DNA of 64,000 nucleotides from Octopus sinensis (taxonomy: Eukaryota): assembly GCF_006345805.1 (NCBI RefSeq), contig NC_043017.1, positions 13,578,001-13,642,000 of the forward strand. Direction: 5' to 3'. Below, one piece after another: positions 38,372 to 39,815 of the stretch (positions within the stretch are counted from its first letter, which is position 1; every line of letters starts with the position of its first letter). A program made the position numbers.

Positions 38372-38402
<31 letters not shown>

Positions 38403-39815
38403 AGGGTTTAGCAACGATTGCCTTACCACATACCGAATTTAGAAATAGCAGTCAAAGGTTTAGCTATTTCTTCTACTAAAAAGGGAGATCTCAGTAAAAA
38501 CAGCATTTGGAAGGCAGACACAACAGCTAAGAGAGAATGAATTGACTGCAATCTATCATACATCTTTTTAGTTATCCACGGACGTACGTTTCGAAATCAA
38601 GTTTTAAGGAAAGCATAAGAATTAAATATTAATATTAAATAATAAATAATTCTATCTTACCGAAACTTCTTTTCTCTTCAGCGTAGAATACTATAATCAT
38701 AAATGATTATATATTGAATTTTGAGATACCAGAAGGCACCAACTCCACTCAGTATCAGAGCGAGCTAGAATCCGCAACTGGTATCACCGAATTCAATTTG
38801 TGAATGAAACGATTGTGTCAACAGCCCTTCCCACCCGCGTGTAGCCAAAACAAGATGCTGTGGTCATCTTACTGAGATAAAAATATGGTTATCCGTAATA
38901 ATGAAGGGTGAAATTAATTAATTTGGAAAATTATCAATTACACCAAGTAGTCTTCGGCATGTAAAAGCCTCATTCGAGGAAAATTTAAGTAATACTAAGC
39001 AATAAGGGTTTAGCAGCATAATCATTTATGATTATAGTATTCTACGCTGAAGAGAAAAGAAGTTTCAGTAAGATAGAATTATTTATTATTTATATTTAAT
39101 ATTTAATTCTTATGCTTTCCTTAAACTTGATTTCGAAACGTACGTCCGTGGATAACTAAAAAAATGTATGATAGATTGCAGTCAATTCATTCTCTCTTAC
39201 TGTTTGTGTCTGCCTTCCAAATGCTGTTTTTACTGAGATCTCCCTTTTTAGTAGAAGAAATAGCTATAACCCTTTGACTGCTATTTCTAAATTCGGTATG
39301 TGGTAAGGCAACTCGTTGCTAACCCTTATTGCTTAGTATTACTTAAATTTTCCTCGAATGAGGCTTTTACATGCCGAAGACTACTTGGTGTAATTGATAT
39401 TTTTCCAAATTAATTAATTTCACCCTTCATTATTATATATATATATATATAGATGCATATATATATATGCATATATATAAATATGCATATATATACAGAC
39501 ATATACATATATGTCTATGTATGTATGCATATGTATATATATATGCATACATTTATGTATGCATCATCATCATCACGATGATGATGATGATGATGCATAC
39601 ATAAATGTATGCATATATATATACATATATGCATACATACATAGACATATATGTATATGTCTATGTGTACTTAACTGCATATAAATACAACACACATACA
39701 TACACAAGTATATGCCTATATATGTAAGCATATATATATATAATATATACATACATGTCCATGCACACATATACACACGTCTATGCACAGATATAATACA
39801 CACACACATCTATGC

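What the first reader, a model, noticed from the sequence alone, without database searches (positions are those of the whole stretch)
38401..39435. Hammerhead-bearing, circularly permuted 602-nt retroelement (retrozyme/Penelope-like) with an inverted second copy
Seen: the order is A(38401-38710), U(38711-38895), B(38896-39015), revcomp A(39018-39328), revcomp B(to 39435). B ends with the 13 nt that begin A (TAAGGGTTTAGCA), and the right arm reads through the A/B junction. So the left part is exactly one 602-bp circular or tandem unit and the right part is an inverted partial unit. Each A contains a type I hammerhead, there is no long ORF, and the element sits in (TA)n. Known: Penelope-like elements carry minimal hammerheads in pseudo-LTRs that can be direct or inverted, and non-autonomous metazoan retrozymes produce ribozyme-processed circular RNAs. 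Inference: this is a non-coding self-cleaving element that may yield a ~600-nt monomeric or circular RNA mobilised by a Penelope-type RT. I cannot tell whether this family has been described.
Basis: partly seen in the sequence, partly recalled or inferred. Interest (0 to 1): 0.9.

Follow-up and report, generated by a model that had tools for sequence, protein, structure and literature searches.

The report
Hammerhead-ribozyme retroelement, two head-to-head copies
A 1-kb non-coding insert in a TA-rich repeat consists of two diverging copies of a roughly 600-base element, each with a hammerhead self-cleaving RNA motif; it looks like one more member of the known animal retrozyme / Penelope-like class, not a new kind of element.

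Summary
blastn and an alignment confirm A 38401-38710, U 38711-38895, B 38896-39015, rcA 39018-39328 (95.9%) and rcB 39317-39435 (98.3%). They also confirm the 13-nt redundancy and the TA-rich flanks.

Each A arm carries a complete type I hammerhead core. It lies on the - strand in the left arm (C17 at 38581) and on the + strand in the right arm (C17 at 39146). It has a 6-bp helix I, an unusually long (~80 nt) helix II, and a 2-bp helix III capped by GUAC, which makes the palindrome ACGUACGU. Unconstrained folding gives the three-way junction, and a homodimer fold gives a double hammerhead. My descriptor hits only these two sites in the window, against 0.04 per shuffle. Rfam finds no hammerhead.

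The arms are not mirror images, so this is not a fold-back artefact, and the template was tandem or circular.

The best reading is a single Penelope-type insertion, primed on both strands, of a non-coding retrozyme-like RNA. Copy number, RNA, the RT and the organism could not be checked. The class is well described, so interest is modest.

The parts
38401..39015 (-). Left copy, 615 nt. Read on the - strand (the hammerhead sense strand) it runs: last 13 nt of A', then B', U' and a full A'. That is one whole 602-nt unit plus a 13-nt terminal redundancy. Its 3' end (sense) is at 38401, next to (TA)n.
38569..38692 (-). Hammerhead of the left copy. C3 is at 38681 and the predicted cleavage is after C17 at 38581.
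38711..38895 (-). Segment U, 185 nt, GC 43% against about 30% for A and B. It is present only in the left copy. No ribozyme, tRNA or other Rfam match was found in it.
39016..39017 (.). Two bases (GC) at the head-to-head junction of the two 5'-truncated copies. The second base also fits a continuation of the left copy.
   Evidence: read directly
39018..39435 (+). Right copy, 418 nt, sense on the + strand. It holds a full A' followed directly by B' and lacks U'. Its 3' end is at 39435, next to (TA)n. It reads through the A'/B' junction, which shows the unit is permuted.
39036..39160 (+). Hammerhead of the right copy. Helix I 5' strand 39041-39046. C3-A9 (CUGAAGA) 39047-39053. Helix II arm 39054-39134. 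G12-A14 39135-39137. Helix III octamer ACGUACGU 39138-39145. C17 at 39146. Helix I 3' strand 39147-39152.
38092..38402 (.). Left flank: TA-rich minisatellite (76-nt period, 4.1 copies). This is the presumed target.
39434..39544 (.). Right flank: the same TA-rich repeat resumes here. Any target-site duplication is hidden in (TA)n.

Best explanation
The 1035 bp is one insertion of a non-coding, hammerhead-bearing retroelement of the animal non-LTR retrozyme / Penelope-derived kind. The template was an RNA longer than one 602-nt unit, either a tandem read-through transcript or a circle copied round. A Penelope-type RT/GIY-YIG enzyme supplied in trans cut an AT-rich target, here (TA)n, on both strands. 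It primed reverse transcription from both nicks at internal sites of the RNA. The two cDNAs grew toward each other and were joined 5' end to 5' end at 39016/39017. That leaves the two copies diverging, each with its 3' end at an outer border. One copy runs 615 nt, a full turn plus 13 nt. The other stops after 418 nt. In an active source locus the hammerhead, working as a dimer through its palindromic helix III, would cut multimeric transcripts to 602-nt monomers that could be ligated into circles. This locus has one ribozyme per strand and is probably a dead-end copy. Shown here: the architecture, the permutation, the ribozyme motif and its predicted folds, the absence of coding capacity, and the TA-rich target. 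Inferred: the RNA intermediate, the enzyme, twin priming, cleavage and circularisation.
For: Architecture and permutation. The right arm is rc(B then A), not the mirror image of A-U-B, so B must precede A in the template, which means tandem or circular.

Hammerhead: it has all core positions, G10.1-C11.1 and A15.1-U16.1, a helix I of 6 bp, and 4 bp of helix II before an internal loop. The MFE and centroid of the 124-125-nt segments form helices I and II around an open core, with z -2.0 and -2.3. The homodimer MFE is -60.6 against 2 x -24.1 kcal/mol (right) and -62.8 against 2 x -25.2 (left). In it ACGUACGU forms an 8-bp intermolecular helix III. The descriptor gives 2 hits in the window against 0.04 per shuffle. 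GAAACGTACGTC with up to 1 mismatch gives 2 matches against 0.03 expected.

RNA-level structure: a circular fold of the unit in the hammerhead sense has z -6.7 (-161.0 against -120.7, sd 6.0, 60 shuffles). The antisense has z -3.3. GC is 34.6%.

Literature: metazoan type I hammerheads have helix I of 6 bp, helix II of 4 bp, and helix III of 1-2 bp capped by a 2-4-nt palindromic loop, and they act as dimers. Pairs of hammerheads ~100-700 bp apart on opposite strands were seen in Schistosoma (PMC4209133, passages). Here the two cleavage sites are 565 bp apart on opposite strands. PLE insertions are partial tandems that often carry an adjacent inverted 5'-truncated copy. They have a 'tail' at one end and a bias for microsatellites, (TA)n in the Naiad clade (PMC8557442, passages). 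A purified PLE protein cleaves and extends both DNA strands, prefers AT-rich DNA and starts reverse transcription at two internal sites (PMC11167929, main text). Non-LTR retrozymes are non-coding, of low GC and highly self-paired (PMC7229834). Their families range from 51 to 972 bp and are related to PLE pLTRs (preprint 10.64898/2026.07.22.740005).
Against: No Rfam hammerhead model matches, even at E<=10. I attribute this to the ~80-nt helix II but did not test that. No second locus of the family is in the window: blastn and nhmmer at E<=10 found none. No RT or GIY-YIG domain is in the 30 ORFs scanned, so neither a family nor a mobilising enzyme is shown. The two copies have different 3' ends, 107 nt apart in the unit, which is longer than the 30-40-bp PLE 'tail'. 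The arms differ by about 4% (A) and 1.7% (B). One event from one template would give identical arms at first, so either the insertion is old or two templates were used. The core, helix I, helix III and the base of helix II are identical in both arms, but at 96% identity that is expected by chance about one time in five (my estimate), so there is no covariation evidence. The invertebrate retrozymes described are 170-400 nt and tandem; this one is 602 nt and not a plain tandem. The PLE hammerhead tested in vitro was not needed for insertion.
Confidence: 0.6

Rival explanations
1. The locus is the stump of a genomic tandem array (A'B'U')n of a hammerhead satellite. It was rearranged later at the DNA level by inversion plus deletion. 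It is not the direct product of one twin-primed reverse transcription. The element class is the same but the history of the locus differs.
For: Tandem arrays are the usual genomic form of non-LTR retrozymes. The left copy spans more than one unit. The 4% divergence between arms fits two old array members better than two cDNAs of one event. A and B diverge unequally, 4.1% against 1.7%.
Against: Both outer borders abut the same interrupted TA-rich minisatellite, as for one clean insertion. Head-to-head 5'-truncated copies with their 3' ends outward are the described PLE insertion signature, and this is explained by extension on both strands in vitro. No further array remnants lie in the flanks.
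Confidence: 0.2
2. The hammerhead is a chance motif, and the repeat is some other inverted-repeat structure, such as a foldback, a DNA transposon, or a DIRS-like element with permuted repeats.
For: Rfam finds no hammerhead. My descriptor was written after the fact and 4 of 100 shuffled windows give a hit. AT-rich sequence easily forms long hairpins such as helix II. There are no independent copies to test conservation.
Against: 0 of 100 shuffles gave a hit with helix I of 6 bp or more. The descriptor did not ask for several features that are present: a 6 bp / 4 bp helix geometry, G10.1-C11.1, and an 8-nt palindrome at helix III, which are the traits listed for metazoan type I hammerheads. The A arm is terminal on the left but internal on the right, 107 nt from the end, so there are no terminal inverted repeats. 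No transposase or tyrosine-recombinase ORF is present.
Confidence: 0.07
3. Assembly or sequencing artefact: a fold-back chimeric read or a mis-join in a TA-rich region.
For: Inverted repeats inside microsatellites are hard to assemble, and PLE-type structures are known to upset assemblies. Several arm differences are 1-nt indels.
Against: A fold-back would give a mirror palindrome, A-U-B followed by B'-U'-A'. The observed right arm is A'-B' without U', so it is permuted relative to the left. The arm differences include substitutions as well as indels. The window has no N.
Confidence: 0.05

Closest known systems
Metazoan non-LTR retrozymes (type I hammerhead repeats giving circRNAs; Cervera and de la Pena 2020, PMC7229834; Li, Clavereau and Pollet 2026 preprint)
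   Same: Non-coding. Low GC (34.6%, below the 45% stated in the paper). One type I hammerhead per unit, with a short helix III and a palindromic loop. A strongly self-paired sense RNA. Unit length inside the published range of 51-972 bp. A proposed dependence on PLE enzymes.
   Different: This is not a head-to-tail array: there is one unit plus 13 nt, and then an inverted partial unit. At 602 nt it is longer than the 170-400 nt given for invertebrates. Helix II is about 80 nt instead of about 4 bp plus a loop. No RNA data are available.
Penelope-like elements and their pLTR hammerheads (Cervera and de la Pena 2014, PMC4209133; Craig et al. 2021, PMC8557442; Frangieh et al. 2024, PMC11167929)
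   Same: The insertion layout: a partial tandem plus an adjacent inverted 5'-truncated copy. An AT-rich or microsatellite target. A hammerhead upstream of the 3' ends. Two alternative 3' ends. Hammerheads paired on opposite strands a few hundred bp apart.
   Different: There is no RT/GIY-YIG ORF in the element or anywhere tested in the window. The two 3' ends are 107 nt apart, against the 30-40-bp tail. The ribozyme has a canonical-type helix III, not the helix-III-less 'min-HHR', and it lacks the bulged base between positions 9 and 10.1.
Amphibian satellite 2 and Schistosoma Sm-alpha type hammerhead repeats (double-hammerhead cleavage; named in passages of PMC4209133 and PMC7229834)
   Same: A weak helix III with a palindromic tetraloop that predicts activity only as a dimer. 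The homodimer fold here gives the 8-bp intermolecular helix III.
   Different: Those are abundant tandem satellites of about 330 bp. Here a single locus is seen, with the two ribozymes on opposite strands, so no dimer can form in cis.

Membership tests
Hammerhead ribozyme, type I | Conserved core C3 U4 G5 A6 N7 G8 A9 ... G12 A13 A14 ... A15.1-U16.1, H17 | tested here: met
   CUGAAGA and GAAA-C-GUAC-G-U-C are present in both arms. The positions are listed under parts.
Hammerhead ribozyme, type I | Three helices around the core, with helix I open-ended | tested here: met
   The unconstrained MFE and centroid form helix I (6 bp, one G-U) and helix II (a 4-bp base, then a long arm). Helix III (2 bp + GUAC) forms only in the homodimer fold.
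Hammerhead ribozyme, type I | Match to the curated Rfam hammerhead covariance models | tested here: not met
   No hammerhead family was reported at the gathering score on the whole window or at E<=10 on 38350-39480.
Hammerhead ribozyme, type I | Site-specific self-cleavage | not testable with these tools
   This needs in vitro transcription of monomeric and dimeric constructs.
Metazoan non-LTR retrozyme | Head-to-tail tandem repeats with a type I hammerhead in every unit | tested here: not met
   Only 1 unit + 13 nt lies in direct order, and the second copy is inverted and lacks U. The permutation implies a tandem or circular template elsewhere, but none is seen.
Metazoan non-LTR retrozyme | No protein-coding capacity, low GC | tested here: met
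   The longest stop-free stretch is 57 aa, and GC is 34.6%.
Metazoan non-LTR retrozyme | Expressed as a unit-length circular RNA | not testable with these tools
   No transcriptome was available. The only related data are the predicted circular-fold z of -6.7 for the sense strand and -3.3 for the antisense.
Metazoan non-LTR retrozyme | Multi-copy dispersed family in the genome | not testable with these tools
   There is no other copy in the 64-kb window. No eukaryotic genome collection was available. The scan of prokaryotic genome contigs with a 28-mer gave 0 hits and is uninformative.
Penelope-like element (autonomous) | ORF with a telomerase-like RT and a GIY-YIG endonuclease | tested here: not met
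   No long ORF is in the element. Pfam gave 0 RT or GIY-YIG hits in 30 window ORFs: 20 of the 27 ORFs of 120 aa or more, plus 10 ORFs of 76-123 aa near the element.
Penelope-like element (insertion signature) | Partial tandem plus an adjacent inverted 5'-truncated copy, in an AT-rich or microsatellite target | tested here: met
   compared with the description in PMC8557442 and PMC11167929.
Penelope-like element (insertion signature) | 30-40-bp tail at one end | tested here: inconclusive
   The two 3' ends differ by 107 nt (segment B'). This is the same idea but about three times longer.

The most novel reading that the evidence does not exclude
This is an uncatalogued retrozyme family whose hammerhead carries an ~80-nt helix II arm and so escapes the standard models. 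Its genomic copy directly records reverse transcription of more than one unit of a circular or multimeric RNA, primed on both strands of a (TA)n target. It would be a natural counterpart of the two-strand extension and internal initiation seen in vitro for a Penelope-like enzyme. The shared ACCCTT just before both 3' ends would be the initiation signal.
Probability: 0.3. Interest if true: 0.45.

Novelty: new member of a known kind. Interest (0 to 1): 0.3.

Why it matters
If other copies confirm it, the locus is a clean natural example of how non-coding hammerhead elements are inserted by Penelope-type machinery. It shows two diverging copies, a read-through past one unit, and a microsatellite target. 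It would also show that hammerheads with a long helix II are missed by the standard Rfam models, so counts of such elements in invertebrate genomes may be too low. It does not open a new class. Type I hammerheads in PLE pLTRs and retrozymes are already known in thousands to more than 100,000 copies in some animal genomes.

Tried and rejected
Rfam at the gathering score on the whole window and at E<=10 on the region found no ribozyme of any family on either strand. The 21 weak matches were AT-rich miRNA-like noise.

A relaxed core scan (CUGANGA with up to 1 substitution, a 6-40-nt gap, then GAAA) found nothing in 38380-39460. The real motif has an 81-nt gap.

ARAGORN found no tRNA in the window, so the element is not a tRNA-SINE.

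Looking for further copies in the window, blastn and nhmmer at E<=10 found none.

Looking for an RT or GIY-YIG domain, Pfam gave none on 30 ORFs. The only hit at all was a sub-threshold PHTF1-2_N match (E 0.0082, 16.3 bits against a cut-off of 25) at 47631-48146.

The organism could not be identified. The protein search of 47631-48146 gave no hit. The LINE-like ORF 13436-13855 gave 4 unnamed RT proteins.

Paper searches. Retrozyme/hammerhead/octopus gave 97 papers with at least 2 of the terms; 25 were listed, and none was about cephalopod retrozymes. The 12-nt core-helix III string in DNA and RNA letters gave 0 occurrences; the 51 papers found held only the 8-mer, and the 15 listed were on unrelated topics, mostly synthetic RNA ligands. 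These searches do not show that the family is undescribed.

A TIR-transposon reading was rejected because the A arm is internal on the right side.

A snap-back cDNA reading was rejected because copying back from the left copy would run into the flank, not into B'.

The 693-column inverted blastn hit 38061-38710 vs 39698-39018 is the A arm plus self-complementary TA repeats, not a longer arm.

No structure, complex or atlas job was relevant.

Full report
OBSERVATION. The region was read directly and compared with itself by blastn. 38401-38710 (A) matches 39328-39018 in reverse complement at 95.9% over 314 columns (6 mismatches, 6 gap openings). 38896-39015 (B) matches 39435-39317 at 98.3% over 120 columns. 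The 13-mer TAAGGGTTTAGCA stands at 38401-38413 and again at 39003-39015, so 38401-39002 is one 602-nt unit and B runs into the start of A. The right arm reads A' and then B' without a break (alignment A1). Tandem Repeats Finder places a TA-rich minisatellite of 76-nt period at 38092-38402, and the same repeat resumes at 39434.

One point decides between several readings. The right arm is not the mirror image of the left. A mirror image of A-U-B would be B'-U'-A', but what is there is A'-B', that is, rc(B followed by A). A fold-back of a read or of a cDNA on itself cannot give this. It needs a template in which B precedes A, which means a tandem or a circle. A, U and B are defined simply by four breakpoints on a 602-nt circle. 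In sense coordinates with A' starting at 0, the right copy runs from 0 to 417, and the left copy runs from 297 through 602/0 to 310.

THE HAMMERHEAD. Rfam reported no hammerhead, neither at gathering scores on the whole window nor at E<=10 on 38350-39480. A plain scan found exactly one CUGANGA per arm, at 39047 (+) and 38681 (-). Reading on from there in the right arm gives the following:
- helix I 5' strand UCUACG
- C3-A9, CUGAAGA
- an 81-nt helix II element beginning GAAA and ending UUUC, so that G10.1 pairs with C11.1
- G12-A14 and A15.1 (GAAA)
- C, the loop GUAC, G, U16.1
- C17 at 39146
- helix I 3' strand CGUGGA

Every core position of the consensus is present. Unconstrained folding of 39036-39160 (+) and 38569-38692 (-) returns this junction as both the MFE and the centroid: helix I of 6 bp, then helix II with a 4-bp base, an internal loop and a long AT-rich arm, around an open core. 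The energies are -24.1 and -25.2 kcal/mol, with z -2.0 and -2.3 against 200 shuffles.

Helix III is too short to form in the monomer. Its eight bases ACGUACGU are a perfect palindrome. In a homodimer fold they make an 8-bp intermolecular helix, and helix I is exchanged between the molecules. The dimer energies are -60.6 against 2 x -24.1 and -62.8 against 2 x -25.2 kcal/mol.

A descriptor of my own asked for the core, helix I of at least 4 bp, helix II of at least 4 bp with an element of up to 120 nt, and helix III of at least 2 bp. It hits only these two places on both strands of the 64-kb window. It hits 0.04 times per dinucleotide shuffle of the window. 4 of 100 shuffles had a hit, and none had helix I of 6 bp or more. 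I wrote the descriptor after seeing the motif, and the two hits are copies of one event, so this counts as a single moderately improbable observation.

The traits the descriptor did not ask for are the 6 bp / 4 bp geometry, G10.1-C11.1 and the palindromic helix III. These are exactly those that Cervera and de la Pena list for metazoan type I hammerheads that work as dimers (PMC4209133, passages).

The long helix II is the odd feature, and it is the likely reason Rfam is blind to this motif, though I did not test that. The 5' strand of helix II can also close on itself as a 4-bp hairpin (read from the sequence), which would compete with the active fold.

Between the two arms, the core, helices I and III and the base of helix II are identical, and the differences inside the ribozyme lie in the distal helix II arm. 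At 96% identity this carries no statistical weight.

THE REST OF THE UNIT. The longest stop-free stretch in a trimer is 57 aa (sense) or 42 aa (antisense). ARAGORN finds no tRNA, and Rfam finds nothing credible in U. GC is 34.6% overall, with U at 43% and A and B near 30%. Folded as a circle, the hammerhead-sense RNA reaches -161.0 kcal/mol against -120.7 (sd 6.0) for 60 shuffles, z -6.7, with 65% of its bases paired. The antisense reaches z -3.3. The strand asymmetry suggests selection on the sense RNA. AT-rich palindromes may inflate both values.

CONTEXT. No other copy of the unit is in the window (blastn; nhmmer at E<=10). No RT or GIY-YIG domain was found in 30 ORFs scanned with Pfam. These were 20 of the 27 ORFs of 120 aa or more and 10 ORFs of 76-123 aa between 32.7 and 44.8 kb. 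The scan would miss decayed fragments: the LINE-like ORF at 13436-13855 also gave no Pfam hit, although its database relatives carry RVT_1 and endonuclease domains. The window is crowded with a ~400-450-bp interspersed repeat.

MECHANISM. With the ribozyme strand as sense, the two copies diverge from 39016/39017. The left copy (sense on -) ends at 38401 with ...AACCCTTA. The right copy (sense on +) ends at 39435 with ...CACCCTTCATTATTA. Both run into (TA)n. Their 5' ends meet head to head. This is the layout described for Penelope-like elements: partial tandems, often with an inverted 5'-truncated copy next to them, an extension or 'tail' at one end, and a bias for microsatellites, (TA)n in Naiads (PMC8557442, passages).

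It also fits the in vitro behaviour of a purified PLE protein. That protein cuts AT-rich DNA and extends both strands, and it starts reverse transcription at two internal sites of the RNA. The distance between those sites explains the tail (PMC11167929, main text).

I therefore read the locus as one twin-primed insertion of a non-coding RNA longer than one unit. The first cDNA started at the A' end and went once round plus 13 nt. The second started 107 nt further along, at the B' end, and stopped after 418 nt.

ACCCTT lies 1 nt and 8 nt before the two 3' ends. It occurs six times in the 1035 bp, all on the sense strand, out of 51 occurrences on both strands of the window. As a candidate initiation signal this is a post hoc lead and nothing more.

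The hammerhead's role (cutting multimers to 602-nt monomers that are then ligated into circles) is taken from the retrozyme literature and is not shown here. In the one PLE tested, the ribozyme needed the protein in order to cleave and was dispensable for insertion in vitro. Each strand of this locus has a single hammerhead, and the fold predicts that a dimer is needed for activity. So this copy should neither cleave efficiently nor release a unit. It is a product, not a source.

WHAT SPEAKS AGAINST THIS READING. The points are:
- Rfam is negative.
- There is only one locus.
- There is no enzyme in view.
- The 3' ends are 107 nt apart, not 30-40.
- The arms have diverged by 4.1% (A) and 1.7% (B), which means an old event, two templates, or a DNA-level history.

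The main rival is that this is the stump of a tandem array later inverted and deleted (0.2). It keeps the element class and changes only the history of the locus. A chance motif in another kind of inverted repeat (0.07) and an assembly artefact (0.05) are less likely, for the reasons given above.

COMPARISON AND NOVELTY. The element works like a metazoan non-LTR retrozyme or PLE-derived non-autonomous element. Strict membership fails on the tandem-array criterion at this locus. It cannot be tested for circRNA or copy number. As an autonomous PLE it fails outright, because there is no ORF. Its 602 nt lies inside the published family range of 51-972 bp (preprint 10.64898/2026.07.22.740005, Results part 1), but above the 170-400 nt given for invertebrates (PMC7229834, section 14). 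Hammerheads on opposite strands a few hundred bp apart were already noted in Schistosoma. The only unusual trait is the long helix II.

I rate it a new member of a known kind, with interest 0.3. Whether this particular family is already in print I cannot say.

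Noticed in passing
window 10716-11179, 13963-14367, 22454-22858, 25247-25641, 34314-34712, 35327-35768, 40511-40951, 43863-44263, 44532-44946, 45605-46010, 49218-49659, 50687-51087, 56011-56410, 56614-57046, 61087-61542: An interspersed repeat of about 400-450 bp occurs at least 15 times in both orientations at 66-89% identity. 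It often lies next to CA/TA microsatellites. Translations of several copies share the same peptide-like string. It looks like a SINE-type family. Two copies flank the hammerhead element at about 2.6 kb and 1.1 kb.
   Followed up: partly
window 13436-13855 (-): A 139-aa stop-free frame is 49-57% identical to the C-terminal part of 4 database proteins that carry RVT_1, 2 of them also with Exo_endo_phos domains (E down to 4e-35). It is a decayed non-LTR (LINE) retrotransposon fragment, not a Penelope-type RT. Pfam itself gave no hit for this piece.
   Followed up: partly
window 32707-33078 (-): A 123-aa frame whose sequence, from recall, resembles the C-terminal tail of LINE ORF2 proteins. Pfam gave no hit.
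   Followed up: no
window 39518-39639: A near-palindrome centred at 39578/39579 lies just right of the element, with 52 of 62 positions complementary per arm. It is built of TA/TG-rich repeats around a (CAT)n/(ATG)n core.
   Followed up: partly
window 44532-45242 and 48926-49625; also 25244-25811: A repeat of about 700 bp is present as an inverted pair at 81% identity, with a third partial copy at 78-79%. It is longer than the SINE-like family and overlaps it.
   Followed up: no
window 38402-38407, 38904-38909, 39004-39009 (-); 39269-39274, 39322-39327, 39422-39427 (+): ACCCTT occurs six times in the 1035-bp element, always on the hammerhead-sense strand, out of 51 matches in the window. It lies 1 nt and 8 nt upstream of the 3' ends of the two copies. 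The stretch before the A' end in the right arm (CTAACCCTTA) is one base away from a reverse-complement TTAGGG-type telomeric repeat; that repeat type is recalled, not tested. It could be an RT initiation signal or chance.
   Followed up: partly
window 59247-60893: About 1.6 kb of TA/CA/TG microsatellite gives overlapping spurious ORFs of 116-234 aa on both strands.
   Followed up: no
window 39018-39035 and 38693-38710: The 5' end of A' (ATAATCATTTATGATTAT) is itself an 8-bp inverted repeat with a 2-nt spacer. It sits exactly where the right copy starts. Such a hairpin might be where reverse transcription stopped.
   Followed up: no
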